The notes beneath the pieces are model-generated. The model saw only the letters and a program-made list of their open reading frames with translations, ran no database searches and was not told the DNA's origin. Below, piece after piece: positions 1 to 61,174 of a stretch of DNA of 64,000 nucleotides. Made by a program: the position numbers and the translations under genes. The number at the start of each line of letters is the position of its first letter. The stretch's first letter is position 1. The DNA comes from Verrucomicrobiota bacterium (GTDB taxonomy: Bacteria > Verrucomicrobiota > Verrucomicrobiia > Opitutales > Opitutaceae), in NCBI GenBank assembly GCA_023443455.1, contig JAEZUE010000103.1, positions 51,885-115,884 of the forward strand. The letters are read 5' to 3'.

Positions 1-2
1 TG

Positions 3-833: not shown

Positions 834-853
834 ACGTCGACCTGAACCATCAC

Positions 854-887
854 GCGGCCGGAGAGTGAACATCTCCGGCCGCTTCTC
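854..887 (+). terminator. Hairpin, terminator/attenuator-like, downstream of the capsid gene
   Basis: GCGGCCGGAGA-gtgaaca-TCTCCGGCCGC (11-bp stem) followed by TTCTC. The T-tract is weak. Confidence 0.45.
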
Positions 888-892
888 AGAAA

Positions 893-2265: not shown

Positions 2266-2276
2266 CCCCACCAGCC

Positions 2277-2486: not shown

Positions 2487-2489
2487 GTC

Positions 2490-5854: not shown

Positions 5855-6057
5855 AGCACCGCCCCGATACCCGTGGCCTCCTCTACTTCAGTATCGCCGT
5901 CCTTGGCGTTTGGGCTGGCGAGCTGGCGAACCTTGGCGGGGCCGAGCTCTTCGCCCGCATCTCCGACCGTTGGCCCGCGCTCGCAATCTCCTCTGTGCTC
6001 GCCGGTCTCATCGCCGTGCGCGCCTACATCGATCAGCACATCTCGCGCAACAAGTAA
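5851..6057 (+). CDS. Small two-TM membrane protein (holin-like topology; function unknown)
   Basis: The GTG start overlaps the fibre stop (GTGA). 68 aa with two hydrophobic helices and a basic C-terminus. Confidence 0.4.
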   Translation: MKHRPDTRGLLYFSIAVLGVWAGELANLGGAELFARISDRWPALAISSVLAGLIAVRAYIDQHISRNK

Positions 6058-6063
6058 CCAGTC

Positions 6064-6522
6064 ATGAAATACCTAACCACCCTCATCTTCGCAGCGCTAG
6101 CGCTGCTCTGCCTCCAGGCCTGCACTACCACCACCGGCACCAATCCTGATCGCTCTGCGGCCATCACCAGCGCCGTCCTTGAGCTCGCCGGCACGGCCAT
6201 CGCCCCGGTGCTCACGAACAACCCCGAGTACCGTCCCGTCGCCTCTGGCGTGGCCGAGGCGCTCGGCACTCTCGAGACCGGCACCATCACCGCGGAGACG
6301 GTCCGCAGCTTCATTGCCGCCTTGGCTGAGCGTCAGGGTTGGGCGCCCGACCAGCGCGCCTATGCCGAGCTCATGGCCGCCTCCGCCTGGACGATCTACA
6401 CCGCGCAGACCGGGCAGACATCAGCTCCCGTATCCGACCCGCAGACGCTCGCGTGGATCTCCGCTTTCCGCCGTGGCCTGCAAACCGCCGTCGCACTCAG
6501 CGCCGCGCCCGCTTCGTCCTGA
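6064..6522 (+). CDS. Phage-encoded lipoprotein (hypothetical)
   Basis: Lipobox LLCLQAC after a signal sequence (MKYLTTLIFAALALLCLQAC). The mature part is predicted helical. Confidence 0.55.
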   Translation: MKYLTTLIFAALALLCLQACTTTTGTNPDRSAAITSAVLELAGTAIAPVLTNNPEYRPVASGVAEALGTLETGTITAETVRSFIAALAERQGWAPDQRAYAELMAASAWTIYTAQTGQTSAPVSDPQTLAWISAFRRGLQTAVALSAAPASS

Positions 6523-6524
6523 CC

Positions 6525-6737
6525 ATGGCCCTCGGCGAATCCATCTTCTCGGCCATCGCGAACGTCTTCGGTCTCACCCGGGACCGGAGCGCACTGCGCA
6601 ACTCGCCCGCGATGCAGGCGAGCAAGGCCGCGAAGACGGACGCCACCATCCGAGCCGAGTCCACGGCCGCCGTCGCCGCCGCCAAGACCGGCGACGCCGA
6701 AGCCCTCGAGAAACTCCGCCGACTCACCGCCGAATGA
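6525..6737 (+). CDS. Hypothetical small protein
   Basis: 70 aa. It starts 3 nt after the previous stop, and its stop overlaps the next start (ATGA). Confidence 0.35.
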   Translation: MALGESIFSAIANVFGLTRDRSALRNSPAMQASKAAKTDATIRAESTAAVAAAKTGDAEALEKLRRLTAE

Positions 6738-7090
6738 ACACCCTCCGCTCTCTTCTTTTCGGCCTCGGCCTCGCGCTCGCCGTGACCAGCTGCACAACCG
6801 TCGTCCCGACTCCGGCCGATGTGCCAGCCGCTGCGTCCTTCGACGGGGCCGAGCAGAATAGCGGAATCGTCAGCGTGCAGCCCGACGGGCTATTCGTTGT
6901 CACGTCGCATCTGCGTGCCAGGTACAACGCGCTTGTCGCCGACTACGGCCATGAGTTCGCGCCGGCCATCGTCGCAGACTACGGCCTCGCCCCGATTGCC
7001 GAGACCGATCGCTGGACGATGACGCCGCAGGCTATGGCCGACTTTGCCATCATGATCCAGTGGCGACGCATGGGGAGGACCTCCCGATGA
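6734..7090 (+). CDS. Phage-encoded lipoprotein (hypothetical)
   Basis: MNTLRSLLFGLGLALAVTSC lipobox. ATGA overlaps on both sides. Confidence 0.55.
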   Translation: MNTLRSLLFGLGLALAVTSCTTVVPTPADVPAAASFDGAEQNSGIVSVQPDGLFVVTSHLRARYNALVADYGHEFAPAIVADYGLAPIAETDRWTMTPQAMADFAIMIQWRRMGRTSR

Positions 7091-7479
7091 CCGAGTCTCT
7101 TGCCGCTCTCATCACTTCGACCGCGAAGGCCGCCTCTGCCGTCGCCGCCATCGCGGGCTCTCGCATCTATCCGACCGCGGCACCGCAGGGCGTCGTGGCG
7201 CCGTACAGCGTCTGGACTGAGGTGTCCACGGTCGGCGCCGAGTCGCACGACAACATGCTCGGGCAGGACGAGACGCAGGTGCAGTTCGCGTGCTACGCGA
7301 ACGACACGCGCACCGCGCTCCTCCTCCGCTCCGCCATCCGCTCCGCATTTTGCACCGGCGGCGGCTACCTCAACGGCACCACCGTGACGAGCCCGACGCT
7401 CCGCCTTCTTCCCGCCGACGAGGTCTCGTTGGCCAATGCCATTCTCGAACTCACGTTTATCCACAATCCTACCACGTAA
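7087..7479 (+). CDS. Tail terminator / tail completion protein (DUF3168 family)
   Basis: ...GSRIYPTAAPQGVVAPYSVWTEVS...ETQVQFACYAND... matches the DUF3168 pattern. It lies immediately upstream of the tail tube gene. Confidence 0.65.
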   Translation: MTESLAALITSTAKAASAVAAIAGSRIYPTAAPQGVVAPYSVWTEVSTVGAESHDNMLGQDETQVQFACYANDTRTALLLRSAIRSAFCTGGGYLNGTTVTSPTLRLLPADEVSLANAILELTFIHNPTT

Positions 7480-7484
7480 ACACC

Positions 7485-7910
7485 ATGTCCACCGTCTATC
7501 CCAACAAGGGCAAAAGCATCAAGGCCGGCGCTGCCGCGTCTCCCACCACTGTCGTCCCCGGTCTCCTCGACTTTGACATCAACGAGGGCGGCCGCGAACT
7601 CTTCGACACCACGAACCAGTCGACTACTGGGACTAAGACGTACGCGCCTGAGCCGCTTCGCGAGCCGCGCAACGTTGAGGTGAAGCTGCAGTTCGACCCG
7701 AAGGACACCGAACACGCCCGGCTCTACGCGGCCTATCTCGCCGGGACGCTTGAGTACCAAACCTTCATTCTGGCAAGCGGCTCCACGTTCGCGTTCTCGG
7801 GATACATCACCGACTTCCCGATTCCCGGCGGCGGTCTCACCGGCCAGGCGGAAGCGTCCTATACGTTCCGCGCTGTTGCCGCCGAAACCTTCACCCCGTC
7901 TCCGGCCTAA
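7485..7910 (+). CDS. Major tail (tail tube) protein
   Basis: 141 aa, positioned between the terminator and chaperone genes. Size and beta-rich sequence are consistent with siphovirus tube proteins. Confidence 0.6.
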   Translation: MSTVYPNKGKSIKAGAAASPTTVVPGLLDFDINEGGRELFDTTNQSTTGTKTYAPEPLREPRNVEVKLQFDPKDTEHARLYAAYLAGTLEYQTFILASGSTFAFSGYITDFPIPGGGLTGQAEASYTFRAVAAETFTPSPA

Positions 7911-7919
7911 CCTCTCGCC

Positions 7920-8249
7920 ATGCCAGCCACCCCATCACAAGCAAAGACGGCCAAGGTCATGCTCGATTGCGAGCGATCAATGACCTACGACACCCGCGCC
8001 GAGTTTCGCATGGGCTCGCTTGATCGCCCGTTCGGAGTCGGCGACCTAAGCAACAGGCGCCGCTCTTGGGCGGCTCTCGTTGCGTGGACGTGGGCATGCT
8101 TATGCGATGACGACGCCGCAGAATTTCAGACTCCGGAATCGCTCGCCGCAGTGATGCAGTCACCTGACGCCATCAAGTCGGCCTTCGCGGCGTTCATCGA
8201 GACGTACACCGCAGCGCTGCCACCGAGCGCAAAAAACTCCGACGGCTGA
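7920..8249 (+). CDS. Tail assembly chaperone (gpG analogue)
   Basis: Lies between the tube and tape-measure genes. It ends just after an A AAA AAC heptamer. The next ORF is in the -1 frame. Confidence 0.65.
   Translation: MPATPSQAKTAKVMLDCERSMTYDTRAEFRMGSLDRPFGVGDLSNRRRSWAALVAWTWACLCDDDAAEFQTPESLAAVMQSPDAIKSAFAAFIETYTAALPPSAKNSDG
8231..8237 (+). promoter_or_regulatory. -1 programmed ribosomal frameshift slippery heptamer, A AAA AAC
   Basis: In the zero frame the codons read GCA AAA AAC TCC GAC GGC TGA. After a -1 slip the reading is AAA AAA CTC CGA CGG CTG ATG..., which is open into ORF 8249-8602. Confidence 0.6.
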
Positions 8250-8602
8250 TGCGGCAGTGGGCGTTCGCCCGTATCAGCCTTCGCCTAACAGATTCCGAGT
8301 TCTTCTCTTCGACGCCAGCGCAGATCGAGGCCATGACTGAGGTATGGGCCGAAGATCGGCAGTGGGATCTCGCGAGCCGCACAGCATCAGCACTCAATGC
8401 GAAATGGAGCCACGAAAAAAAGGTAGTCCCATTTTCACCACGCGATTTCATTCCGAAGACCGCGGAGGAGAAACGCGCAGATGCGCGAGCGGAGTCAAAA
8501 GCCAGAGCCGAACGCGACCGGATACTCGAGATGAAGTTTGCATCTGTATCCGCAAGCCTACCGAAGAAGGGAGCGCCTGATGGCACGCAGGAAAAACGGT
8601 AG
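8249..8602 (+). CDS. gpT-like segment, probably expressed as a G-T fusion by a -1 frameshift (also has its own ATG)
   Basis: -1 frame relative to 7920-8249, with a TGATG junction. Lys/Glu/Arg-rich C-terminus. Confidence 0.55.
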   Translation: MRQWAFARISLRLTDSEFFSSTPAQIEAMTEVWAEDRQWDLASRTASALNAKWSHEKKVVPFSPRDFIPKTAEEKRADARAESKARAERDRILEMKFASVSASLPKKGAPDGTQEKR

Positions 8603-9107
8603 AGTTGCCCATCTCGACTTTGACCTCGCCGCCGTTCTTGACCTGCAGAGGACGTTAGCCGGGATCGCAGAGAATGTCCGGTCCGATGTTATCGGCGACA
8701 TGGTCGCCGAAGGCGCCAAGCCGATCGTGCGCGCGATCAAGCCGAAGGTGCCTGTCGACCTCGGAAACCTTCGGGCATCCATCGCTTATGGGGTGCGAAA
8801 GAACAGGCGCCGTGGGACAGCTGTCGCCTACGTCGGGCCCGAGGTAGGCGGAATCTTCCGGGCAGGGAAGCGGCTCAACAAAAAGAAGGACGATCTTCGC
8901 GGGGCGTCAGGACCATCTCGCTACGCACACCTTATCGAGTTCGGTCACGCCGCCCGCGACGGATCAAACGTCGAGGCCAAACCATTCATGCGACCCGGAA
9001 CAAACGAGTCGATCAATCAGGTCCAAGGTGCGCTCGTTGTTGGGTTCCAGAAGGGACTTACGCGCGCCGCGAGAAAGTTTGCCAAACGAATCGCAAAGGG
9101 GAAATAG
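8580..9107 (+). CDS. HK97 gp10-family neck/tail component protein
   Basis: ...KPKVPVDLGNLRASIAY...YAHLIEFGHAARDGSNVEAKPFMRPG matches the gp10 family pattern (vP.dtG.Lr.si ... EfGt ... a.PF.rp). GAAGGGAG lies upstream of the ATG. Confidence 0.7.
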   Translation: MARRKNGRVAHLDFDLAAVLDLQRTLAGIAENVRSDVIGDMVAEGAKPIVRAIKPKVPVDLGNLRASIAYGVRKNRRRGTAVAYVGPEVGGIFRAGKRLNKKKDDLRGASGPSRYAHLIEFGHAARDGSNVEAKPFMRPGTNESINQVQGALVVGFQKGLTRAARKFAKRIAKGK

Positions 9108-9110
9108 CCA

Positions 9111-10319
9111 ATGGGCAAGAACATCACAATCGCTCGACTGAATACGCTTGTGACGGCCAATGCCGCGCAATTCAGCCAGGAACTCGACAGGGCGCAGGCC
9201 ATTGCCAAAACGAAGAGCCGCGGGATCAGCTCGGCTCTCGATGGGCTCGGAAGCAAGCTTGCCGGAGCACTGACCATCGGAGGAGCTGTCGCGTTCGGGA
9301 AGTCGCTCGCTGACTACGGCTCCAACATCGTGCACCTCGCCGAACAAGCGAACCTATCGACGCGGTCGTTTCAGGTGCTCTCAGCTGTTGCGGTGCAGAA
9401 TGGCGTCGAGATGCAGCGCGTTGCCACGGCATCGGAAAAGATGCGAATGGGCCTTCAGCGTGCACGTGAAAACGCCGCAGATCCTCTGCATAAAAGCCTC
9501 CGCGCACTCGGACTCACTGCTACAGGTCTGTCCGGTCTCAATACGGATCAGAAGTGGGAGGCCATTGCGATCGCGATGTCGCATGCGAATAATGAGCAGG
9601 CAGCGTTCAACGCCGCGACGGCGCTGTTCGGCGAGGAGATGGGCCCGAAAATGCGATCAACGCTCCGCGAGTTGGCGGTCGGCTTCGACGCCGCATCCAG
9701 AGGCGTCGATGGGCTGATGCTCGACGATTCGCAACTGAGGTCACTCGAGCAGTTCGGAAGCTACCTCGATCGCATCGGTATCGCAGCGAAGGTTATGGCG
9801 GCCAACCTGTTGGATAGGTCGAAGGGATTCGATGACATGTGGAGATCGGCAAAGACATTTCTCGGGATGGAAGAGAAGATCGGGAAAGGCGACGTGCGCG
9901 CACGCGGTGGATTCGTTTTGCCTGGAAGCAATCTGCCCGCAGCAAAGACGAGAGGGCAGGAGATCGACGACATGATGTTGGAGGCCCAGAAAAAAGAGTG
10001 GGCCCGTGAATGGCAGGAGCATCAAGTCAAGATGAAGCAGATACATCAGCGCAATATTCAGAATTGGTCGTCACCTGAATATCAGATGAAGGTGCGAGAA
10101 TCACTGAACGCGCTCACGGTGGCCCCTAGGAATGTCGGCACACAGGCTCCGACTGATGCGTATTCGCGGATCGGACTTGCAAGCACAGACAGCAGCCCGA
10201 CGGTTACCCCGCAGAAGGAGACAAACGAGCACCTCAAGAAGGTTAATGAAACGCTCAAGCAGATTCGCGACGGACTATCGCATCTGAACAAATACCAAAC
10301 CGCAGCTTTCGGAAACTGA
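9111..10319 (+). CDS. Tape measure protein (short, 402 aa)
   Basis: Lies downstream of the chaperones. Helical, Ala/Leu/Gln-rich N-terminus with a hydrophobic GGAVAFG segment. Confidence 0.6.
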   Translation: MGKNITIARLNTLVTANAAQFSQELDRAQAIAKTKSRGISSALDGLGSKLAGALTIGGAVAFGKSLADYGSNIVHLAEQANLSTRSFQVLSAVAVQNGVEMQRVATASEKMRMGLQRARENAADPLHKSLRALGLTATGLSGLNTDQKWEAIAIAMSHANNEQAAFNAATALFGEEMGPKMRSTLRELAVGFDAASRGVDGLMLDDSQLRSLEQFGSYLDRIGIAAKVMAANLLDRSKGFDDMWRSAKTFLGMEEKIGKGDVRARGGFVLPGSNLPAAKTRGQEIDDMMLEAQKKEWAREWQEHQVKMKQIHQRNIQNWSSPEYQMKVRESLNALTVAPRNVGTQAPTDAYSRIGLASTDSSPTVTPQKETNEHLKKVNETLKQIRDGLSHLNKYQTAAFGN

Positions 10320-10323
10320 CAAC

Positions 10324-11082
10324 ATGGCAGGACTTATTGACTACCTTCGCCCGGACTACCCGCAGCGCGTTCGCGACGCGTCTGGCGTACGCCGGATCTA
10401 CGCGTTCCGCGGTCCGTCGGCCACGATCATTCCAGTTCTTCCGGCGATCGGTTCGACGTGGCTCGACCTATACCCGGTCGACAGGGTGAGCGACAACCAG
10501 ATAGGCGTGTCGGACTACTCGGATGCGTTCGTCGAGACGTACCAGATCGATTCGGAGACGACGACAGAGAAGACCGACGATCAGTATCCGTTCTTCGAGA
10601 TCGATCAGGTGCAGATCGAGAAGGCGCTGAAGCAGCATCCATCGTTCATCTCTTTCGCCGCTGCCGACTGGCAGGCCGTGAACGCGTGGGACGTCGAGAC
10701 CGATCACGTCCTTCGGTCCGCCTATCAGTACTATCTCCGCGACAAGGATGGGCTCGCGGTCGGATCTGTCGCGACGCTTACCGGAACCACGTCGTCAGGT
10801 CAAAAGGCGTACGCTTATCTCCGACTTCGAGGTGTCGAGTCGTTCCTCGATTTCGCGCCAGTCGTCAGGAAGAGTTCGCGATACCTCGGGAGCGCAGCTC
10901 CCGACAGTGTCGACACAGGGCAGAAGACGGATGCGCCGACATACGCGCCGACCGGTTACGAGTGGCTCAAGACCGCAGATCGCGTGTCAAAATCAGGCTC
11001 GCGTGGGATCGAGTGGATACGACAAGAGGAATGGACAGGCGCCCGCAAGGTGCTGCTCGACAAGGATAGCCTCTTCACCTGA
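10324..11082 (+). CDS. Hypothetical tail-tip protein (in the distal-tail position)
   Basis: Position only; no motif recognised. Confidence 0.35.
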   Translation: MAGLIDYLRPDYPQRVRDASGVRRIYAFRGPSATIIPVLPAIGSTWLDLYPVDRVSDNQIGVSDYSDAFVETYQIDSETTTEKTDDQYPFFEIDQVQIEKALKQHPSFISFAAADWQAVNAWDVETDHVLRSAYQYYLRDKDGLAVGSVATLTGTTSSGQKAYAYLRLRGVESFLDFAPVVRKSSRYLGSAAPDSVDTGQKTDAPTYAPTGYEWLKTADRVSKSGSRGIEWIRQEEWTGARKVLLDKDSLFT

Positions 11083-11087
11083 TCACG

Positions 11088-11666
11088 ATGAAACTTCCGT
11101 CACCAGTCTCGCCCGGGCAGCCGCTGAGCGCGAAGGCGTTCAACGATCTTCTCGCATTTGTCCGCTCGCTTGATGTTCGCAGCGGACCCGGAATACGGGT
11201 TGTGCGTAGTGCCGTAGGAACAACAATCACGGCAACAGTAGGCGGCGTAACACAAAGAGCGTCTTCCGCGCTGACGCATCCATTCCAAGTCACCGATTCA
11301 AGCTCCGGAGTTAATGCTTCCGTCACTGTAAAAACCGGGAGTGTTAACGACTCGATCCCAACCGGGATCGACCCAACTTCTCACTCGCTCACGTCGGCCG
11401 GGACATGGCGGATTTATCTCGACTGCACGCTCAGCGCCGATGCTGCCGGATCGATCACAGCGGTTGCTGTTGCAGTTGTAAACGGGGCCCAGCCTGCCGA
11501 CACGCGAACGCACGCATACATCACGCTCGCCACTGCAACCGTCGTTGCGATCACTGGCGGGTTCAGCGTATCGGAAATCAACCAGCTTGCGACGCACTCG
11601 TTGCGGTTCCACGCATGCGGTCGTGACGACTCGGTGGACGGTTCATACAACTTCTGGGGATTCTGA
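11088..11666 (+). CDS. Hypothetical tail-tip protein
   Basis: Position only. Ser/Thr/Ala-rich, beta-like sequence. Confidence 0.35.
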   Translation: MKLPSPVSPGQPLSAKAFNDLLAFVRSLDVRSGPGIRVVRSAVGTTITATVGGVTQRASSALTHPFQVTDSSSGVNASVTVKTGSVNDSIPTGIDPTSHSLTSAGTWRIYLDCTLSADAAGSITAVAVAVVNGAQPADTRTHAYITLATATVVAITGGFSVSEINQLATHSLRFHACGRDDSVDGSYNFWGF

Positions 11667-11668
11667 CG

Positions 11669-12568
11669 ATGGAGTGGCCACCGCAAGACACTGGCCGTTT
11701 CGCCGTTCCGTTCTGCGTGCAATGCTGCACGTTTGAACCCGTCGATAAATACGAGATATCTGGATCTGCAAACACCGGATACATGATGGTCGGCACACCA
11801 AATCCAGACGGCAGCGGGACAAGCCTGTTTCGCACTGTTACGTGGTCTGGCGGATTCTCGATCCAGTATTCGAACGAAGAGGACTGCTCGATAGTGGAGC
11901 TGACATCGACTGCATCATACAGCGGAGCGAGCACGAATGGCTTCGACATGTCTATCTCTGGATCCGTTGTGCTCTACCAAGACAGCGCTCTTATCGCAGA
12001 GACAAACATCGACGCTCCGAGCCTAGTAGCTCCAAACGGCATGCCAGACGACACCGCGGGAGGAACGACTGGAAGCACCGAATATCTCGACGGAACTGGC
12101 GAGTGTTACGTCGTGAGCGGTGGCAGCATCTATCCGCTTGGGAGGGCAACAGGGCAGGCAGTTGCGACGTTCTCAAACATATGCACGGAGGAGGATTCGA
12201 TTGCGTGGTACGATGCCGAATATCCCGGTTGGGATTCTTGGAGCAATGCCTTCATGGATTCTCTTTGGGACTACGTATGGACATCTGGCTATCAGCCAGC
12301 TCCACCGGCTACCGTTGGATGGTACCGACACGGAAGGATGAGGTTTCGCCGGACAAAGAGCGGATACACGCCAGGCGCACGATACATTTGCCAGATGCAA
12401 GTCGAGCGCACCGCATATGGCGAAGGGGCGTGGGCGCTGTACGCCACGATTGAGACGACTCTTGATGCCGATGCGAGCGGCACATTGACGTGGGAGGGCG
12501 AGACTCCATTTGCCCGCGGATACGAGACATGGGTAAAGGCGCGGTCGTTTACCGCGGTCCCGGCATGA
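11669..12568 (+). CDS. Hypothetical tail-tip / receptor-binding candidate
   Basis: Position only. Trp/Tyr-rich C-terminal half. Confidence 0.35.
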   Translation: MEWPPQDTGRFAVPFCVQCCTFEPVDKYEISGSANTGYMMVGTPNPDGSGTSLFRTVTWSGGFSIQYSNEEDCSIVELTSTASYSGASTNGFDMSISGSVVLYQDSALIAETNIDAPSLVAPNGMPDDTAGGTTGSTEYLDGTGECYVVSGGSIYPLGRATGQAVATFSNICTEEDSIAWYDAEYPGWDSWSNAFMDSLWDYVWTSGYQPAPPATVGWYRHGRMRFRRTKSGYTPGARYICQMQVERTAYGEGAWALYATIETTLDADASGTLTWEGETPFARGYETWVKARSFTAVPA

Positions 12569-12879
12569 GGCTGATCGTCCACCGGCCAGATCTCCATGAT
12601 CCTGTCGCTACGCCGGCGGCGACCGCCGCAACGCCATCCGCGGTCAAGATCGGCAACCTGCGGCGGGCCCTGCGGCGGTGGCAGCAGTCCGGGTTCAAGC
12701 TGACGCCCAGCAGCGAGCGCAAGACGAGGTCCTCCATCTGCGCCGCGTGCCCGCACTGGGACGACGCTGGTAACCTCGGCCTCGGTGAGTGCCGTGCGCC
12801 CGGGTGCGGGTGTACCCGGGCGAAGGTCTGGCTGGCGACAGAGAGGTGCCCGCTGGGTAAGTGGGCGAAGTCCAGCTGA
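12565..12879 (+). CDS. Small Cys-rich (zinc-ribbon-like) protein
   Basis: ATGA overlap with the previous gene. Motif CAACPHW-x13-CRAPGCGC-x12-CPLGKW. Confidence 0.4.
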   Translation: MRLIVHRPDLHDPVATPAATAATPSAVKIGNLRRALRRWQQSGFKLTPSSERKTRSSICAACPHWDDAGNLGLGECRAPGCGCTRAKVWLATERCPLGKWAKSS

Positions 12880-12889
12880 CTGGTCGCGG

Positions 12890-14002
12890 TCACCCACCGA
12901 TTCGAGCAACGACAGCATCCAACACCCGCCAGCATTTCGCGGCCTCCGATCGGGAGACCAGCCGGTTGATGTAGTGGCTGCGGAGAACTACCACCGAGTT
13001 GCCCATGTCGGCAGACAGGTCGTGCTCTGCGGTTCCGAGCGCGTAGAGAGTTGAAGCGTAGGTGTGCCGCCCGATGTCGACCGCCCACCCGTCGCCCTCG
13101 CCGCACCCTGCCCTCGCGCGGATCCGGCGGAACATCCGCCGCGACCAGTACCCCGGAACCTCTCCGCGCTCGGCCAGTACCTTGAGCACGCGAGCGAGCC
13201 GCGGATCAAGCCGGCTATGGCGCACGCGCGACACCTTGGTCGCAGCCTCGTCGAGCACGACCTCGCCTCGATCCCACCCGAACTGCTTCCAGCTCAACTT
13301 CTGGATTTCCTCCGGTCGCACGCCGGAGAAGAAAAGCAAGAGGATGTGAGCGAGCATCGGGCCCGGCTCAGTCCGCGACCCAGCATCGCGCCACGCCGCT
13401 GCAACGAGGCGCGAGAGGTGATAGGCCGACAACACGGCCGGCAGCTGGCGCTCGGCGCTGGGCAGCTCCACGCGCTCCATCGGAGATCGGTCGCAGTGAC
13501 CGGAGCGCACGCACCAACGGAAGAAGTTGCGCCATGCGATCGCATAGTTGATCCGGCTCCTGGCCGACAGCGGGGCCGAATCGAGCCATCGCTGCAGTTT
13601 GGCCGCATTGACCTGCCGCGGCGGAACGTCGCCACAGATCTTCGTGAGCTGCCCCACCCGGAACGTGAGGTTGACGGTCGTTCGCTCGCGACGGCCGGCC
13701 GCTTCCTTTGCCGCGACAAATTCGCCGACGAGCGCCAGCAACCCGCCGCGCAGTGCCCCAACGCTGGTGGACGCTGCCCCAACGCGTGCCTTGTCGCCCC
13801 AGACCAAGGCGCAGACCCCATCCATGCCGCTGCGGGCGGCTACCGCGAGCATCTCGCGCCGACGGGCCTCCGCCTCCTCTTTGCTTGCGAACCCCTCTCG
13901 GTATCGCTTCGGTGTGCGCTCGTGAGACCATCGCAGGCCAACGCTCAGGCGCCAACGCTGCACCCCATCATGCCTAAACTCTGGCGCGATTGTTATTCGC
14001 AT
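12890..14002 (-). CDS. int: Tyrosine-type site-specific recombinase (phage integrase)
   Basis: 370 aa from the ATG at 14002. C-terminal catalytic-domain pattern ...LLLFFSGVRPEEI..., ...IGRHTYAS..., ...LRSHY. The longer 503-aa ORF reads through the two tRNA genes and is rejected. Confidence 0.8.
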   Translation of the reverse strand: MRITIAPEFRHDGVQRWRLSVGLRWSHERTPKRYREGFASKEEAEARRREMLAVAARSGMDGVCALVWGDKARVGAASTSVGALRGGLLALVGEFVAAKEAAGRRERTTVNLTFRVGQLTKICGDVPPRQVNAAKLQRWLDSAPLSARSRINYAIAWRNFFRWCVRSGHCDRSPMERVELPSAERQLPAVLSAYHLSRLVAAAWRDAGSRTEPGPMLAHILLLFFSGVRPEEIQKLSWKQFGWDRGEVVLDEAATKVSRVRHSRLDPRLARVLKVLAERGEVPGYWSRRMFRRIRARAGCGEGDGWAVDIGRHTYASTLYALGTAEHDLSADMGNSVVVLRSHYINRLVSRSEAAKCWRVLDAVVARIGG

Positions 14003-14080: not shown

Positions 14081-14155
14081 GCCGGCATAGCACAGTGGTA
14101 GTGCAACGGTTTTGTAAACCGTAGGTCGTCGGTTCGAATCCGACTGCCGGCTCCA
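14081..14155 (+). tRNA. tRNA-Thr (anticodon TGT), CCA encoded
   Basis: Folded manually. Acceptor GCCGGCA/TGCCGGC, D arm GCAC-AGTGGTA-GTGC, anticodon arm ACGGT-TTTGTAA-ACCGT, T arm GTCGG-TTCGAAT-CCGAC, then TCCA. Confidence 0.9.
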
Positions 14156-14242: not shown

Positions 14243-14316
14243 TGCCCGATGGTGTAATGGTAGCACAGCAGATTCTGAATCTGTTTGTCTAGGTTCGATC
14301 CCTAGTCGGGCAGCCA
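14243..14316 (+). tRNA. tRNA-Gln (anticodon CTG), CCA encoded
   Basis: Folded manually. Acceptor TGCCCGA/TCGGGCA, anticodon arm GCAGA-TTCTGAA-TCTGT, T arm CTAGG-TTCGATC-CCTAG, then GCCA. Confidence 0.9.
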
Positions 14317-14692: not shown

Positions 14693-15832
14693 ATGACCAT
14701 TCGCTCCCTCCGAGACACCCTCCCCTCACTTGCGACCCCACCACGCCGAAAGAAGGGCATGCTCGCACTGCTCACCTTGCTCTGGGCCAACGCCGTCTTG
14801 GCCCAGGGAACCGGACGGGCGGGCCCGCCCCATCTCCACCCGTGGGCGCCCAACCTCGGAGCGGCGGGCCTGTTGGCTGAATTCGGCAGCTACGACACCT
14901 ACGGCACCGTCCAGGAACGACTCGGCCAGTCGCGGGCCCAGATCGCTTGGGCCGCCATTCCCGGCAACCCCACCTCCGGCTACGAGGACGCCGCCGATGT
15001 GCTCGTGGTGCCGGTCGATCTGGCCGTCCCCCTCGGCTCCGAGCATTCGTTCCTGCGTGTCGGCGGCGTCGCGATGTACAACCGCGGCCGGGAAAACATC
15101 ACCTGGGTCGACATCGACACCAGGCGCGCCGAGCTGCAGTACCTCTACATCCCCACGCCCGACACCATCCTTGCGATCGGAGGCACGGTGGAAAACGCCG
15201 ACATCGCGATGGGCCACAGCCCCGGCCACATCGCCAGCGACGGGCTCGGCCTGCGCGCCGACATCGTGCACAAGTTCAGTCCGCGCTGGGGCATCGCGGT
15301 GCGCGGCGAACTCATCGCCGCCGAAGCCGAAACCCGCCTGACCCTGCGCAACGCCCTGCGCTACGGCTACGACCAGGACTATCGGCGCCTCTACCTCCAG
15401 ACCTGCCTCGTCGGCACCTTCACCCACGATTCGCTGCGCTGGGTCCCGCAGGGCTGGGTCTTTCGTCCGAACTTCACCGCCCTCTTCGAGCGCAACTCCT
15501 TCGCCGACGCCCTCGACACGTTCGGCCGCACCGTACGCGGTACCGTGGGTTCCAGCGACAGCTACGCCACCCTCTCCGCCTGCGGCCGCCTCGAACGAGC
15601 GAGCTTCCGGCCCTGGCATCCGGCCCCCTTCCTCGAGGTCGGGCTCGAACACGAGATCCGCAACGATCTCGACGCCCTGCTCGACGAACCGACGATTCTG
15701 CGCACCGCCATCGGCGCCTCGCTCAACCTCACCCACGGGGCCCGCATCGACGTCGAGTACTCGCGCCACGACGGACTCGAAGGCCTGCGGCGCGACCAGT
15801 CGCTGACCGTGCACCTCGGCTTCCTGTTCTGA
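14693..15832 (+). CDS. Outer-membrane beta-barrel protein (hypothetical)
   Basis: Signal-like RRKKGMLALLTLLWANAVLAQG, alternating beta-strand pattern, and a C-terminal ...LTVHLGFLF ending in Phe. The start could instead be 14759. Confidence 0.55.
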   Translation: MTIRSLRDTLPSLATPPRRKKGMLALLTLLWANAVLAQGTGRAGPPHLHPWAPNLGAAGLLAEFGSYDTYGTVQERLGQSRAQIAWAAIPGNPTSGYEDAADVLVVPVDLAVPLGSEHSFLRVGGVAMYNRGRENITWVDIDTRRAELQYLYIPTPDTILAIGGTVENADIAMGHSPGHIASDGLGLRADIVHKFSPRWGIAVRGELIAAEAETRLTLRNALRYGYDQDYRRLYLQTCLVGTFTHDSLRWVPQGWVFRPNFTALFERNSFADALDTFGRTVRGTVGSSDSYATLSACGRLERASFRPWHPAPFLEVGLEHEIRNDLDALLDEPTILRTAIGASLNLTHGARIDVEYSRHDGLEGLRRDQSLTVHLGFLF

Positions 15833-15838
15833 GCGTTG

Positions 15839-15977
15839 AGCCTTCGGTCGAGTGACGAGTGAGCAGCGTCGAGGGGCCGATCACAGAGGAGATCGAGCGA
15901 AGCGCTCGGGTTGGAAGCTCGCCACCGATGGTTTGGCGCTGGTCCCTCGACGCTCGCCTCCCGACCGCATCATCACG
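15839..15977 (+). repeat. MITE-like structured repeat, copy A (139 bp class)
   Basis: Aligns with the copies at 20392, 55549 (inverted) and 60874. Flanked by CTGAGCGT at 15829-15836 and 15979-15986. Confidence 0.85.
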
Positions 15978-16051
15978 GCTGAGCGTATCCGGAAAAGTGG
16001 CGCGCACTGCGCGCGCCGTCGCCGGCACGGGGAACTAGGCCGCCGGCCCAT

Positions 16052-20106: not shown

Positions 20107-20388
20107 TTGCCTCGAGGCGATTCCCCAACATCCCTCCACCTCATGTCCGAGCCCGTTACCCGCAAGAGCTCCCCGCTCAACCTCGCCATCGACGCCGCGC
20201 TCTGCGCGACCGCCTTCGTTTTGTTCTACTGGGTTTCCGAGACCCACGTGCCCTCCGAAAACCCGACCCAGATCACGCTCTGGTCCGCCTACAGCGCTGC
20301 CTGCATGACCGGCGTGTTCTGGCTCGCGTGGCAGATGCTCAAGGCCGTCTATCGCCACCAGCGCGGGGTGCCGGTCGTGCACGACTGA
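20107..20388 (+). CDS. Small membrane protein (hypothetical)
   Basis: Two hydrophobic helices. The start may be the internal ATG at 20143. Confidence 0.4.
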   Translation: MPRGDSPTSLHLMSEPVTRKSSPLNLAIDAALCATAFVLFYWVSETHVPSENPTQITLWSAYSAACMTGVFWLAWQMLKAVYRHQRGVPVVHD

Positions 20389-20391
20389 GCC

Positions 20392-20523
20392 AGCATTCGG
20401 TCGAGTGAGGAGCGTCGAGGAGCCGATCACAGAGGAGATCGAGCGAAGCACTCGTGACGGAAGCTCGCCACCGATGCTTTGGCGTTCATCCCTCGACGCT
20501 TGCCTCTCGACGGCATCATCACG
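20392..20523 (+). repeat. MITE-like structured repeat, copy B (132 bp class)
   Basis: Flanked by perfect CACGACTGAGCC at 20380-20391 and 20520-20531. Confidence 0.85.
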
Positions 20524-20605
20524 ACTGAGCCGTCGCCACTCGCGCTCCGCGGCACCGGAAACCGGGCCGCGGATTTTTCCTGCCCTCACGCAGGCGCCCT
20601 CTCGC

Positions 20606-35047: not shown

Positions 35048-35120
35048 GTAGGAGCCTGCTTGCAGGCGATCTGTGCGCCGCCGCCAACGAATCCGGAATC
35101 GCCTGCAAGCAGGCTCCTAC
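35048..35120. repeat. REP doublet: two inverted GTAG-headed REP hairpins, left flank of the RAYT
   Basis: GTAGGAGCCTGCTTGCAGGCGAT ... ATCGCCTGCAAGCAGGCTCCTAC. Confidence 0.85.
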
Positions 35121-35227
35121 ATCCCGATACATTCGGATTTGCGGCGTGTCCTCGGATCCGCCTTGATGCGGACGCCCGTTCCGCCGACACCCCGCAGCCG
35201 GCATATTCCCTCCAATCGGGGACCATC

Positions 35228-35746
35228 ATGGCTGCATTCAATCCCTCCAGAGGCCACGCCGCCCTTCGGCGAGGTCGCAACTCCGCAAACGGCGCCACTT
35301 ACTTTCTGACGCTATGCACCGCTGCGAAGCAACCCGGCCTCTGCATCCCGGGAATAGCAGCGGTTATCGTGGAACAAATCGCGGCGATGGACGCCGACAG
35401 ATCGTGGTTGGCGCGCTGCCATGTTATCATGCCCGACCACCTGCACCTGCTTGTCGTCCTCGGAGACCGGCTCCCGCTCGGCCGGGCGGTCCAACGCCTG
35501 AAAGCCAAAACATCATCGGCGCTGCATGCCGCCGGAATCGCGTGGGAGCGCAACTTCTTCGATCACAAACCGCGCGCCACGGAGCCAGCAGATCCAGTCC
35601 TCCGGTACATCTACCTCAACCCGTATCGCGCCAACTTGGTGCAACCACATGAACGCTGGCCACACTACCACTGCAGTGCGGTGGATTGGCAGTGGTTCGG
35701 TAGGCAGCTCGACCGGGAACTGCCGATCCCGGAATGGCTCGGTTGA
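35228..35746 (+). CDS. REP-associated tyrosine transposase (RAYT; IS200/IS605-like Y1 HUH transposase)
   Basis: HUH motif MPDHLHLLV and catalytic Tyr region YIYLNPYRA. About 172 aa, bracketed by REP doublets. Confidence 0.8.
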   Translation: MAAFNPSRGHAALRRGRNSANGATYFLTLCTAAKQPGLCIPGIAAVIVEQIAAMDADRSWLARCHVIMPDHLHLLVVLGDRLPLGRAVQRLKAKTSSALHAAGIAWERNFFDHKPRATEPADPVLRYIYLNPYRANLVQPHERWPHYHCSAVDWQWFGRQLDRELPIPEWLG

Positions 35747-35749
35747 ACC

Positions 35750-35823
35750 GTAGGAGCCTGCTTGCAGGCGATCTGTGCGCCGCCCGCCAACGGATTCGGA
35801 ATCGCCTGCAAGCAGGCTCCTAC
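35750..35823. repeat. REP doublet, right flank of the RAYT
   Basis: Near-identical to 35048-35120: GTAGGAGCCTGCTTGCAGGCGAT ... ATCGCCTGCAAGCAGGCTCCTAC. Confidence 0.85.
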
Positions 35824-35842
35824 ATTCGGTTTCCCACGCGGA

Positions 35843-48004: not shown

Positions 48005-48092
<88 letters not shown>

Positions 48093-55165: not shown

Positions 55166-55546
55166 ATGCCCGAAGCCCACGAGTTCTCCCGCGACATCGA
55201 GAACCTGATCGCTTCATTGCGAGGGTTGCCCACCGACGACTCGCGGTCGAAGCGCCGCAAGGAACAGCCCATCGGCCTGTCGATCGACAAGATCCTCCGC
55301 CAATACCACATCGGCGAAGAGGCTCCCGACCACACCATCCGGCAGCACTGGGCCGACGTCGTCGGCTCCGCCAACGCCGCCTACAGCCACCCGGTCAAGA
55401 TCGACAAGAAAGGCAAACTGCTCGTGCTCGTCTCCCACGCCGTCGTGCGCGACGAACTCCGCCTGCTCGAGACGATCATGCTCCAGCGCATCCGCCGCCT
55501 GCACGGCTGCGAAAACGTCACCGGCCTCACGCTGCGCGCCGGCTGA
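55166..55546 (+). CDS. DUF721 (DciA-like) protein
   Basis: ...IRQHWADVVGSANAAYSHPVKIDKKGKLLVLVSHAVVRDELRLLETIMLQRI... fits the DUF721 pattern. Confidence 0.6.
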   Translation: MPEAHEFSRDIENLIASLRGLPTDDSRSKRRKEQPIGLSIDKILRQYHIGEEAPDHTIRQHWADVVGSANAAYSHPVKIDKKGKLLVLVSHAVVRDELRLLETIMLQRIRRLHGCENVTGLTLRAG

Positions 55547-55548
55547 GG

Positions 55549-55687
55549 CGTGATGATGCTGTCGAGAGGCGAGCGTCGAGGGACTAGCGTCAAACCGTCG
55601 GTGGCGAGCTTTCATCACGATTGCTTCGCTCGATCTCCTCCGGGATCGGCCCCTCGACGCTCGTCCATCGTCACTCGACCGCATGCT
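55549..55687 (-). repeat. MITE-like structured repeat, copy C (139 bp class, inverted)
   Basis: The reverse complement aligns with copies A, B and D. Flanked by perfect CGGCTGAGGC at 55540-55549 and 55690-55699. Confidence 0.85.
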
Positions 55688-55967
55688 TACGGCTGAGGCC
55701 AGCCGCGACTCGCCGCACCGCCGCGCTCCGGCGGGCCGGTCCCAAAGCGGGAAGCGACGCACCCCGAAAAAACCGCTTGCGAACTCGCAAAGCGCTCGGG
55801 ATAAACGCCCCTCGCGTTAGTGACTGTCCATCGGTTTGGACAGCCACCTCGACTGGTTCCGAAGCCCTCCCGGCCGAGGAACTAGAACGGTGCGACCGGC
55901 CTTCCACAGCGGGTTGCACGGGCCTCCCCGGAGGTTCCACTCAGTCGTGGATCAAGCAACAACCAAC

Positions 55968-60167: not shown

Positions 60168-60869
60168 ATGAGCCTCATCAACGACGCCCTCAAAAAAGCG
60201 CAACGCGAACGCGCCCACCCGGCGGACCGGGCCCCGAGCACCACGCCGCCCGCCGGCACGCCACCGCCCGCACACCCCGCCGGCCCCCGCCAGGAGCTTC
60301 GCTCCAAGGGCAACCCGTGGCTGCTCATCCTGGTGGCCGTCGGAGTGATCGGCGGCGGCACTGCCGTCTGGTTTCTCAAGCCCGGTGCCGCCCCGGCCCC
60401 GGCCCAAACCGCTGCCGCCCCGGCTGCGCCCTCCCCGGTCCCCGCACCGGCGACGCCCGCAACCGAGCCGGAGATGCCCCAGCTCACGATCAACCTCGCC
60501 GGCACCACGCCGCCACAGCCCGTCCCGGCACCCACGCCCAGCCCGCTCCCCGTCGCCCCCCCGGCCACGACTCCCCCCACGGCACCCGTCGCGAAAACCT
60601 CGATGCCCGAGGCACCGCCCGCCGCCGCCCCGGCGCCGTTGCAGATTACCCTTCAGCTCGAGGATCCCCGCGTCCTCGCCTTCCTCGATGCCGCCAAGAT
60701 CAACGGCATCCGCGCCGCGGCCGACGACGCCAAGCTGCTCATGAACAACAAGGTCTTCCGGGTCGGCGGCGTGGTCGACCGCGAGCTCGGGTTGAAGCTC
60801 GTGCAGATCCTCCCGACCGAACTCGTCTTCGAGGACGCCCGCGGTATCCAATACCACAAGATTCTCTGA
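60168..60869 (+). CDS. Pro/Ala-rich bitopic membrane protein, GspB/ExeB-like partner of ExeA
   Basis: MSLINDALKKAQRER start, one TM, a long Pro-rich linker, and a C-terminal ...INGIRAAADDAKLLMNNKVFRVGGVVD...LVQILPTELVFED... Confidence 0.5.
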   Translation: MSLINDALKKAQRERAHPADRAPSTTPPAGTPPPAHPAGPRQELRSKGNPWLLILVAVGVIGGGTAVWFLKPGAAPAPAQTAAAPAAPSPVPAPATPATEPEMPQLTINLAGTTPPQPVPAPTPSPLPVAPPATTPPTAPVAKTSMPEAPPAAAPAPLQITLQLEDPRVLAFLDAAKINGIRAAADDAKLLMNNKVFRVGGVVDRELGLKLVQILPTELVFEDARGIQYHKIL

Positions 60870-60873
60870 GCCG

Positions 60874-61005
60874 AGCATTCGGTCGAGTGACGAACGTCGA
60901 GGGGCCGATCACGGAGGAGATCGGGCGAAGCACTCGTGCAGGAAGCTCGCCTCCGATGGTTTGGCGCTCGTCCCTCGACGCTCGCCTCTCGACCGCATCA
61001 TCACG
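60874..61005 (+). repeat. MITE-like structured repeat, copy D (132 bp class)
   Basis: Upstream flank CTGAGCCG (60866-60873). The downstream flank is the degenerate GCTTCGGCCG (61006-61015). Confidence 0.8.
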
Positions 61006-61174
61006 GCTTCGGCCGACGGTTCGACCGCCTCCGCCACCGGCCGAAGCGCCTGTGCCAAAGCAACCCGTATTCGGAATTCGGTGACTCGCTCCAGGCACAC
61101 TGGCCGACGCGGCCGTTGCATCGTCGGCCGAACGCCTCGACGCCGCCCGCGCAGAAAAGCCGCTGGACCGCACC

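What the first reader, a model, noticed from the sequence alone, without database searches (positions are those of the whole stretch)
20380..20531. MITE-like 132-139 bp structured repeat inserted exactly at stop codons, with CTGAG-centred flanking direct repeats (four copies in 64 kb)
Four copies align at roughly 85-90% identity by eye: A 15839-15977 (+), B 20392-20523 (+), C 55549-55687 (inverted) and D 60874-61005 (+). There are two length classes, differing by a 7-nt indel after GGTCGAGTGACG. Every copy contains nested long-range helices. The outer one pairs GGTCGAG with CTCGAC(C), and the inner one pairs CGTCGAGGG with CCCTCGACG. These enclose smaller hairpins, CGAGCG-AAG-CGCTCG and CGCCA...TGGCG. 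The ends carry subterminal inverted CGGTCGAG cores. Each copy is bracketed by short direct repeats: A has CTGAGCGT (15829-36 / 15979-86); B has CACGACTGAGCC (20380-91 / 20520-31); C has CGGCTGAGGC (55540-49 / 55690-99); D has CTGAGCCG against a degenerate GCTTCGGCCG. In all four cases the TGA inside the left-hand repeat is the stop codon of the adjacent gene (15830, 20386, 55544, 60867), including the inverted copy. This looks like a non-autonomous transposable element with an 8-10 bp target duplication and a preference for CTSAG sites that coincide with stop codons. Alternatively, selection may tolerate insertions only immediately after a stop codon. I do not recognise it as a described repeat family.
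Basis: seen in the sequence. Interest (0 to 1): 0.8.

Follow-up and report, generated by a model that had tools for sequence, protein, structure and literature searches.

The report
New MITE landing on stop codons
A 130-141 bp non-coding, hairpin-forming mobile DNA repeat from an uncultured soil or water bacterium (Opitutaceae) sits four times exactly on gene stop codons, most likely because its preferred insertion sequence (GCTGAGC, the classic Tn10/IS10 target) itself contains TGA; this makes it a new member of a known class, not a new mechanism.

Summary
Four copies of a 130-141 nt repeat, 86-90% identical, lie at the stated coordinates. Each starts 3 nt after the TGA stop of a + strand gene, and one copy is inverted.

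Each copy has a 24-nt subterminal inverted repeat. The flanking 9-mers carry the stop codon at positions 4-6:
- B: GACTGAGCC on both sides (9/9).
- C: GGCTGAGGC on both sides (9/9).
- A: 7/9 in that register, with an exact 8-mer one base off.
- D: degenerate.

These are real target duplications. The inverted copy keeps CTGAG in the gene's orientation on both sides. A 9-bp duplication with the consensus N-GCTNAGC-N is the published IS10/Tn10 target.

Outside coding sequence, six of the eight or nine GCTNAGC-like sites in the chromosomal part of the window overlap stop codons, and four of those six are occupied. Target preference plus selection therefore largely explains the stop-codon pattern.

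The orthologous sites of C and D are empty in related genomes. Two diverged relatives of the element, in other Opitutaceae, also abut stop codons. One of them has inverted rather than direct flanks, which I cannot explain.

Rfam, protein, plasmid, phage and JGI metagenome searches all found nothing.

Verdict: a new MITE family, probably mobilised by an IS4/IS10-like transposase. No partner element was found. Only four good copies could be reached.

The parts
15827..15835 (+). Copy A, left 9-mer TTCTGAGCG. It contains the TGA stop (15830-15832) of the upstream 368-496 aa hypothetical gene.
15836..15976 (+). Copy A, element body. 141 nt, long class. Starts TTGAGCCTTCGGTCGAG and ends CCGACCGCATCATCAC.
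15977..15985 (+). Copy A, right 9-mer GGCTGAGCG. It matches the left 9-mer at 7/9. The exact direct repeat CTGAGCGT is at 15829-36 and 15979-86. A PAS sensor histidine kinase gene follows, with its ORF starting at 16052.
20383..20391 (+). Copy B, left 9-mer GACTGAGCC. It contains the TGA stop (20386-20388) of a small membrane-protein gene of about 81-93 aa.
20392..20522 (+). Copy B, element body. 131 nt, short class. The left terminus is 3 nt shorter than in A and C.
20523..20531 (+). Copy B, right 9-mer GACTGAGCC, a 9/9 direct repeat of the left one. By eye, a hairpin plus a T5 run follows at about 20549-20579. The convergent tatC gene ends at 20606.
55541..55549 (+). Copy C, 9-mer GGCTGAGGC. 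It contains the TGA stop (55544-55546) of dciA.
55550..55690 (-). Copy C, element body. 141 nt, long class, inverted relative to A, B and D.
55691..55699 (+). Copy C, second 9-mer GGCTGAGGC, a 9/9 direct repeat in the gene's orientation even though the element is inverted. The rpsO leader and gene follow.
60864..60872 (+). Copy D, left 9-mer CTCTGAGCC. It contains the TGA stop (60867-60869) of a 233-aa proline-rich protein.
60873..61004 (+). Copy D, element body. 132 nt, short class.
61005..61014 (+). Copy D, right flank GGCTTCGGCC. This is a degenerate counterpart of the left 9-mer, about 4-5 of 9 matching. A Wzy_C-family gene follows at 61175.

Best explanation
[quoted passage not shown] They are short, non-coding deletion derivatives of an insertion sequence, moved in trans by a DDE transposase encoded elsewhere in the genome of an uncultured Opitutaceae bacterium.

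Proposed mechanism:
1. The transposase binds the two ends. Each end has a terminus of about 9 nt, 5'-GTRAKSATG, followed by the 24-nt inverted repeat CGGTCGAG-WGRCGA-GCGTCGAGGG.
2. It makes a 9-bp staggered cut in a target with the symmetric consensus N-GCTNAGC-N.
3. Repair duplicates the 9 bp on either side of the element.

Because the centre of that target is T-N-A, every such site carries TGA or TAA on one strand. Inside genes, an insertion destroys the gene and is lost. At a stop codon in the context GC-TGA-GC, the left copy of the duplication rebuilds the last codon and the stop, so the gene stays intact. In this compact, 66% G+C genome most target-like sites outside coding sequence are stop codons, so surviving copies pile up there, in either orientation.

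Status of each step:
- Shown here: the repeat family, the inverted repeats, the direct duplications, the fit to the target consensus, the position on stop codons, and absence from orthologous sites in relatives.
- Inferred: transposition in trans, an IS4/IS10-like transposase, and purifying selection as the filter.
- Possible but untested: once inserted, the element becomes a long 3'-UTR hairpin that could affect mRNA decay.
For: Repeat family:
- Four copies, 86-90% identical, and no others in the window.
- No coding capacity. All frames were checked, and a six-frame peptide profile has no homologue among 5.8 billion protein clusters.

Inverted repeats:
- A 24-nt subterminal inverted repeat with 2-3 mismatches, plus partly matching 9-nt termini.

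Target duplications:
- 9/9 in B, 9/9 in C, 7/9 in A. Flank comparisons between different copies give 3-7 of 9, and inverted comparisons give 4-7 of 9.
- The inverted copy keeps CTGAG in the gene's orientation on both sides.
- The flanking 9-mers match GCTNAGC at 5-6 of the 6 fixed positions, except D's degenerate right flank (4/6).

Literature:
- IS10 has the consensus 5'-NGCTNAGCN-3' and makes a 9-bp duplication (PMC4574204).
- The IS10 subgroup of the IS4 family gives 9-bp direct repeats, and its ends begin 5'-NT (PMC2266710).
- All four right ends begin 5'-GT (as the reverse complement). The left ends of C and A begin GT and TT.

Site census in the chromosomal part of the window (14.3-64 kb):
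- 21 GCTNAGC-like sites in coding sequence, 6 on stop codons (4 occupied), 2-3 elsewhere.
- 8 of 22 TGA stops are in the context CTGAG, and all four insertions are among those 8 (P about 0.01).

Mobility and orientation:
- Site C is empty in three related genomes, and site D is empty in one that keeps the stop context CTCTGAG.
- Orientation relative to the upstream gene is 3:1 in the window and 3:3 when the two diverged relatives are included. This argues against a strand-specific RNA role.
- Short-read contigs of the same population break inside copies C and D, as expected for a multi-copy repeat.
Against: - Only four good copies could be reached, so the duplication length (8-10 bp) and the exact termini are not fixed. 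A's exact repeat is offset by one base from the 9-bp register. D has no clean duplication. B and D have left termini 2-3 nt shorter than A and C.
- No autonomous element or transposase with matching ends was found. No transposase gene was noticed in the window, but its ORFs were not screened systematically.
- The ends show no significant similarity to E. coli IS10 ends: 8/20, essentially only TGATGA at positions 2-7.
- The empty sites in relatives are not precise. The intergenic DNA there is too diverged to align base by base.
- A diverged short form of the element in a related genome (L130:13124-13200) is flanked by GGCTGAGGC and GCCTCAGCG. These are inverted, not direct.
- A second diverged copy (L129:382-525) abuts a TAA stop in the 9-mer CCGTAAATC. 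That site fits the consensus only at T-A-A.
- The statistical case that target preference plus selection is sufficient rests on n = 4. The probability that all four land on stops, given the available non-coding sites, is about 0.1.
Confidence: 0.7

Rival explanations
1. The element actively targets gene ends or stop codons. It would do so through some feature other than the GCTNAGC sequence, for example DNA structure at the boundary between coding and non-coding DNA, a terminator, or a host factor. The CTGAG context would then be secondary.
For: All six family members seen abut a stop codon, with the stop triplet at positions 4-6 of the 9-mer next to a terminus. These are the four in the window plus the diverged copies at L129:382-525 and L130:13124-13200. 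One of them sits in a poor consensus site, CCGTAAATC. Four of the six stop-codon target-like sites in the window are occupied, while none of the 2-3 other non-coding sites are.
Against: - All four window insertions are in the CTGAG subset of TGA stops (P about 0.01), which points to sequence recognition.
- The two free non-coding sites lie in a divergent promoter region, where selection would also remove insertions.
- The register of the L129 copy rests on a weak alignment: 53% identity, E = 0.002-0.008.
- To my knowledge, no DNA transposase is known to sense stop codons.
Confidence: 0.12
2. The repeat is mainly a functional structured RNA module of 3' untranslated regions, such as an mRNA stabiliser, an RNase III site, a terminator or an sRNA. 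Selection would keep it at gene ends, and mobility would be incidental.
For: All copies lie directly downstream of stop codons and would be co-transcribed. They are predicted to fold into a long G+C-rich stem with internal hairpins, with z-scores down to -5.0. Other bacterial MITEs, such as Correia/NEMIS, are reported to act at the RNA level (PMC2229807).
Against: - No Rfam match, even at E = 1.
- None of the 37 predicted pairs shows a compensatory change.
- Folding z-scores are unremarkable for A and B.
- Orientation relative to the upstream gene is mixed, 3:1 in the window and 3:3 overall, so the transcribed strand differs between copies.
- No U-tract follows the stem, and none of the terminator-like sites the scan found near the copies coincides with the element's stem.
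- Absent from the orthologous sites in relatives.
Confidence: 0.1
3. The element is a REP/REPIN-type or IS200/IS605-type element, moved as single-stranded DNA by an HUH tyrosine (Y1) transposase such as a RAYT. The flanking repeats would then be recognition or cleavage sequences rather than duplications.
For: The element is a long imperfect palindrome whose inner stem begins CGTC. The window encodes a RAYT-like protein with HUH and Y motifs. The short diverged copy in L130 has inverted rather than direct flanks.
Against: - The RAYT-like gene is flanked by its own, unrelated REP doublets with the sequence GTAGGAGCCTGCTTGCAGGCGAT.
- The two arms of the element are not themselves hairpins.
- HUH elements make no target duplication, whereas B and C have perfect 9-bp direct repeats with copy-private bases. 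The inverted copy keeps the flank orientation of the gene.
Confidence: 0.04

Closest known systems
IS10 / Tn10 (IS4 family, IS10 subgroup)
   Same: It makes a 9-bp target duplication at the symmetric hot-spot consensus 5'-NGCTNAGCN-3' (PMC4574204). Its ends begin 5'-NT (PMC2266710). The flanks of copies A-D fit this consensus at 5-6 of the 6 fixed positions, except D's degenerate right flank (4/6).
   Different: The element has no transposase gene and is 130-141 nt, against 1,329 bp for IS10. Its ends are not recognisably homologous to IS10 ends (8/20 identical). The host is a verrucomicrobium rather than an enterobacterium. IS10 is not known for accumulating on stop codons.
Bacterial MITEs (Correia/NEMIS, RUP, ERIC, YPAL/RU-2, MITEAba12)
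   Same: They are small (under 200 bp), non-coding and dispersed. They have terminal or subterminal inverted repeats and target duplications. They are often co-transcribed with the upstream gene as a stem-loop (PMC2229807). Like YPAL, this element is not A+T-rich, and its best inverted repeat is internal to the ends.
   Different: Most described families duplicate TA or A+T-rich targets. This one has a G+C-rich 9-bp target centred on TGA. There is no sequence similarity to anything in Rfam, plasmid, phage or JGI metagenome collections.
REP / REPIN elements with RAYT transposases
   Same: They are intergenic, palindromic and G+C-rich repeats, usually found downstream of genes.
   Different: REPINs are pairs of short hairpins with a GTAG or CGTC head and no target duplication. 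A separate REPIN-like pair with a RAYT-like gene lies in this window (35048-35825), and its sequence is unrelated.
Mycobacterial interspersed repetitive units (MIRUs). Cited from my own knowledge, not checked here.
   Same: They are intergenic repeats whose ends overlap the stop and start codons of the flanking genes.
   Different: MIRUs are tandem direct repeats of 40-100 bp in a fixed orientation within operons. They are not single inverted-repeat elements with target duplications.

Membership tests
Bacterial MITE (non-autonomous DDE transposon derivative) | Small and non-coding | tested here: met
   The element is 130-141 nt. No reading frame is open in all four copies. A six-frame peptide profile finds no protein among 5.8 billion clusters.
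Bacterial MITE (non-autonomous DDE transposon derivative) | Terminal or subterminal inverted repeats | tested here: met
   There is a 24-nt inverted repeat, CGGTCGAG..GCGTCGAGGG, with 2-3 mismatches. The outer 9 nt match only in part.
Bacterial MITE (non-autonomous DDE transposon derivative) | Target-site duplication that differs from copy to copy | tested here: met
   B is 9/9 and C is 9/9. A is 7/9, with an exact 8-mer. D is degenerate. Comparisons between different copies give at most 7/9.
Bacterial MITE (non-autonomous DDE transposon derivative) | Several dispersed copies in one genome | tested here: met
   There are four copies in 64 kb, next to unrelated genes. Short-read contigs break inside copies.
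Bacterial MITE (non-autonomous DDE transposon derivative) | Filled versus empty orthologous sites | tested here: inconclusive
   The element is absent at site C in L114, L115 and L128, and at site D in L129. These genomes are only about 90% identical in PNPase protein, so no base-precise empty site could be read. Sites A and B are not syntenic in the relatives fetched.
Bacterial MITE (non-autonomous DDE transposon derivative) | Autonomous element with the same ends | not testable with these tools
   Only about 83 kb of this genome could be reached.
IS4 family, IS10 subgroup (as the source of the transposase) | 9-bp direct repeats | tested here: inconclusive
   B and C fit exactly. A fits at 7/9, or as an 8-mer one base out of register. 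D does not fit. The subgroup value of 9 bp is from PMC2266710, Table 1.
IS4 family, IS10 subgroup (as the source of the transposase) | Target consensus NGCTNAGCN | tested here: met
   5-6 of the 6 fixed positions match in seven of the eight flanking 9-mers (D's right flank 4/6). The consensus is from PMC4574204. It is documented for IS10 itself, not for the whole subgroup.
IS4 family, IS10 subgroup (as the source of the transposase) | Ends beginning 5'-CT / 5'-NT | tested here: inconclusive
   The right end begins GT (as the reverse complement) in all four copies. The left end begins GT in C and TT in A, but GA in D and AG in B.
IS4 family, IS10 subgroup (as the source of the transposase) | End sequences homologous to IS10 | tested here: not met
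   IS10 was fetched from plasmid R27. The best ungapped identity of the first 20 nt is 8/20. A distant subgroup member need not share ends with IS10.
IS4 family, IS10 subgroup (as the source of the transposase) | DDE transposase with the YREK motif in the same genome | not testable with these tools
REP/REPIN mobilised by a RAYT | Short hairpin units with a GTAG or CGTC head, no target duplication, and cognate REPs flanking the RAYT gene | tested here: not met
   The arms of the element are not hairpins, and duplications are present. The RAYT-like gene in the window is flanked by a different REP.
Any described RNA family (Rfam 15) | Match to a covariance model | tested here: not met
   There was no match at gathering thresholds over the whole window, and none at E up to 1 on copy B.

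The most novel reading that the evidence does not exclude
The family may be specialised for stop codons as such. Insertions, including those at poor-consensus sites such as CCGTAAATC in a related genome, would be directed to or retained only at the exact stop triplet. The element would then serve as a portable 3'-UTR hairpin module that the host tolerates or exploits. That would make it a transposon lineage whose niche is the last codon of genes.
Probability: 0.12. Interest if true: 0.65.

Novelty: new member of a known kind. Interest (0 to 1): 0.35.

Why it matters
- **A worked example of a striking pattern with a simple cause.** A repeat "always exactly on the stop codon" can arise from a palindromic transposase target that happens to contain a stop triplet, combined with purifying selection in a gene-dense, G+C-rich genome. 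Anyone annotating repeats near gene ends should test this before proposing a function.
- **A new family in a poorly surveyed phylum.** I found no record of mobile repeats of this kind in Verrucomicrobiota, in the searches I could run. It also suggests that IS10-like target preference exists far outside the enterobacteria.
- **A possible effect on expression.** Each insertion adds a stem of about 25 bp to a 3'-UTR, which could alter mRNA stability.
- **A practical effect on assemblies.** Short-read metagenome contigs of this organism break at the copies.

Tried and rejected
**Database searches for more copies**
1. The genome-collection scan used an 18-nt core. This lost the best route to more copies.
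2. The JGI metagenome scan with a 25-nt core gave one hit, a chance match inside a sigma-factor gene. The viral contig scan gave none.
3. A six-frame peptide profile of the element was searched against the protein collection, hoping for miscalled ORFs over other copies. It found none.
4. Rfam, at gathering thresholds and at E = 1, gave nothing.
5. Searches of the plasmid and phage collections at low stringency gave nothing.

**Extending the window**
6. Contigs of the same population were used to extend the window. The 9 kb upstream is prophage and the 9 kb downstream holds no copy. One look-up was wasted on wrong coordinates.
7. Identical-protein look-ups for DciA, S15 and the 233-aa protein reached only the same population, and every contig read there carries the element.

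**Testing sites A and B**
8. Loci in relatives were anchored on the histidine kinase gene to test sites A and B. Synteny was not conserved.

**Models considered and rejected**
9. A 3-bp TNA duplication with inverted repeats reaching the very ends was rejected for the window copies. The bases next to TGA match the opposite flank directly in A, B and C (3/3 each), and only 2/3 in the inverted sense.
10. Homology of the ends to E. coli IS10 was not supported.
11. A REPIN/RAYT reading was rejected.
12. An intrinsic-terminator function was rejected. None of the terminator-like sites that the scan found near the copies coincides with the element's stem, and no T-run follows the stem.

Full report
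**1. The observation**

The four copies are at the coordinates given. Over the core they are 86-90% identical pairwise. A profile built from them recovers exactly these four in the 64-kb window, at E = 1e-46 to 1e-49, plus weak hits to their own reverse strands caused by their dyad symmetry. Two conserved cores occur four times each, against 0-0.2 expected.

A and C are 141 nt. B and D are 131-132 nt. The difference is a diverged tandem copy of the heptamer GTGACGA, plus 2-3 nt at the left terminus.

None of the 37 pairs shows a compensatory change. Single-sequence z-scores range from -0.5 to -5.0.

Third-position G+C profiles and a crude gene call show that each copy begins 3 nt after the TGA of a + strand gene. 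The gene neighbours are:
- A: a hypothetical protein upstream, a PAS histidine kinase downstream.
- B: a small membrane protein upstream, convergent tatC downstream.
- C: dciA upstream, rpsO downstream.
- D: a proline-rich 233-aa protein upstream, a Wzy_C-family gene downstream.

**2. The organism and its relatives**

PNPase homologues place the window in an uncultured Opitutaceae bacterium (Verrucomicrobiota). The nearest public relatives are about 90% identical in PNPase. The same population was assembled from several ENA and Logan samples, and every contig read there carries the copies.

**3. Anatomy of the ends**

Each left end was aligned with the reverse complement of the right end. This gives a 24-nt inverted repeat, CGGTCGAG-WGRCGA-GCGTCGAGGG, with 2-3 mismatches. 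About 9 partly matching terminal nucleotides precede it: GTAAGCATG or TTGAGCCTT on the left, and GTGATGATG on the right.

All four copies end ...CATCATCAC. The 9-mers directly outside the termini are as follows.

| Copy | Left 9-mer | Right 9-mer | Match |
|---|---|---|---|
| A | TTCTGAGCG | GGCTGAGCG | 7/9 |
| B | GACTGAGCC | GACTGAGCC | 9/9 |
| C (+ strand) | GGCTGAGGC | GGCTGAGGC | 9/9 |
| D | CTCTGAGCC | GGCTTCGGC(C) | 4/9 |

The stop codon always occupies positions 4-6 of the gene-proximal 9-mer (the left one in window coordinates).

**4. Are the flanking repeats target duplications?**

Within-copy direct identity is 7, 9, 9 and 4 of 9. Comparisons between different copies give 3-7 of 9, and inverted comparisons give 4-7 of 9.

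Three points show that the repeats come from the target rather than from the element:
- B and C are perfect, and each carries private bases on both sides.
- A has the private tetramer GCGT on both sides.
- The inverted copy C has CTGAG, not CTCAG, on both sides in the gene's orientation.

A model with a 3-bp TNA duplication and inverted repeats running to the very ends fits the window copies less well. The three bases next to TGA match the opposite flank directly at 3/3 in A, B and C, but only at 2/3 in the inverted sense.

**5. What the target looks like**

The flanks fit N-GCTNAGC-N at 5-6 of the 6 fixed positions, except D's degenerate right flank, which fits at 4/6. This is the published hot-spot consensus of IS10/Tn10, which makes a 9-bp duplication (PMC4574204). 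In the IS4-family survey the IS10 subgroup is characterised by 9-bp direct repeats and ends beginning 5'-NT (PMC2266710).

I fetched IS10 from plasmid R27. Its ends share only TGATGA at positions 2-7 with the right end of the element, 8/20 overall. The link to IS10 therefore rests on the target and the duplication length, not on homology of the ends.

**6. Why stop codons?**

Any CTNAG carries TGA or TAA on one strand. In the chromosomal part of the window (14.3-64 kb) the GCTNAGC-like sites divide as follows:
- 21 are inside coding sequence.
- 6 overlap stop codons, and 4 of these are occupied.
- 6 more fell outside my gene calls. Three of these are simply the right-hand duplications.
- That leaves 2-3 genuinely free sites. 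Two lie in a divergent promoter region, and one lies in a stretch where my gene caller failed.

Given those available sites, four out of four landing on stop codons has a probability of about 0.1. Conversely, only 8 of 22 TGA stops have the CTGAG context, and all four insertions are among those 8 (P about 0.01).

So sequence preference explains the choice of sites. The scarcity of other harmless sites explains the stop-codon pattern. An insertion there is harmless because the left copy of the duplication rebuilds the last codon and the stop.

**7. Mobility**

- Site C (dciA-rpsO) lacks the element in three relatives, L114, L115 and L128. The rpsO leader downstream aligns well.
- Site D lacks it in L129. 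There the orthologous gene still ends ...CTCTGAG, and the spacer is 64 bp instead of 305 bp.
- These relatives are too distant for a base-precise empty site.
- Sites A and B could not be tested, because the loci anchored on the histidine kinase are not syntenic.

**8. Diverged relatives of the element**

About 128 kb from related Opitutaceae yielded two diverged copies.

- **L129:382-525.** It is about 53% identical overall, with a 27-nt stretch matching at 24/27 (E = 0.008 with the four-copy profile). It forms a hairpin and starts right after a TAA stop, in the 9-mer CCGTAAATC. No direct repeat is visible.
- **L130/L131:13124-13200.** This is a 77-nt short form. Its right half is 74-76% identical to the window copies (E = 7e-9). 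Its right terminus abuts the TGA of a minus-strand amine-oxidase gene. Its flanks, GGCTGAGGC and GCCTCAGCG, are inverted rather than direct.

I cannot explain the inverted flanks. Recombination between inverted copies, or insertion into a pre-existing palindrome, are both possible.

When these two are counted, orientation relative to the upstream gene is 3:3. All six family members abut a stop codon.

**9. Alternatives**

- **A described RNA family.** There is no Rfam match.
- **A strand-specific RNA function.** There is no covariation, orientation is mixed, and the element is absent from orthologous sites.
- **An intrinsic terminator.** None of the terminator-like sites the scan found near the copies coincides with the element's stem, and no T-run follows the stem.
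- **REPIN/RAYT.** This is rejected. The window does contain a RAYT-like gene, with a Y1_Tnp match of 21.2 bits, below the cut-off of 23. It is flanked by its own, unrelated GTAG-headed REP doublets. HUH transposases also make no duplications.

**10. Verdict**

This is a new family of bacterial MITE, most likely moved by an IS4/IS10-like transposase with a Tn10-type target. The stop-codon pattern is largely a by-product of that target plus selection.

Confidence is about 0.7 for the MITE reading and about 0.4 for the IS10-subgroup assignment.

The main limitations are the small sample of four copies, the lack of a partner element, and the lack of a precise empty site.

Noticed in passing
window 35048-35825: A 172-aa ORF, ending at 35746, has an HUH motif (DHLHLL) and a Y motif (RYIYLNP). 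Its Pfam Y1_Tnp match is weak (21.2 bits, cut-off 23). On each side it is flanked by an inverted doublet of the exact 23-mer GTAGGAGCCTGCTTGCAGGCGAT (35048+/35098- and 35750+/35801-). This looks like a RAYT gene bracketed by REPIN-like pairs. The 23-mer occurs nowhere else in the window.
   Followed up: partly
window 1-14000, and L116: The first 14 kb or so is a prophage structural module: terminase with a LAGLIDADG insert, portal, S78 protease, HK97-type capsid and tail genes. It continues at least 9 kb upstream (Prim-Pol, HNH). It ends next to tRNA-Thr (14081-14155) and tRNA-Gln (14243-14316), which makes one of these a likely integration site.
   Followed up: partly
window 42842-42881, 48006-48045, 62772-62811: A 40-nt perfect palindrome, CGGGAAAAATAGCGTGACGGTCGTCACGCTATTTTTCCCG, occurs twice identically and once in diverged form. 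An A5/T5-flanked G+C stem looks like a repeated bidirectional terminator or operator.
   Followed up: no
L130:13105-13215 (same in L131; GCA_030154545.1): A 77-nt short form of the element in a related Opitutaceae. Its flanks, GGCTGAGGC and GCCTCAGCG, are inverted rather than direct. The proximal one holds the TGA stop of a minus-strand amine-oxidase gene. This does not fit a simple 9-bp duplication.
   Followed up: partly
L129:382-525 (GCA_035299125.1): A hairpin-forming sequence of about 140 nt, roughly 53% identical to the element (24/27 in one stretch). It is inverted and starts directly after the TAA stop of a YkuD-domain gene. No direct repeat is visible.
   Followed up: partly
L109 end, L120 start, L124 end: Short-read (Logan) contigs of the same population stop or start inside copies C and D. 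This is consistent with the element being a multi-copy repeat that breaks assemblies.
   Followed up: partly
whole window: CTSAG occurs 59 times, against about 130 expected from base composition alone. That is roughly a two-fold depletion. I did not test it against a higher-order model. The cause could be codon usage, avoidance of a restriction site, or avoidance of a transposon target.
   Followed up: no
L133:1-2325 and L114:6145-6787: Related Opitutaceae loci carry an MmeI-family type IIL restriction-modification gene (L133), and an RHH/PIN toxin-antitoxin pair inserted between the oppC-like and ABC transporter genes (L114). Both are absent from the window.
   Followed up: no
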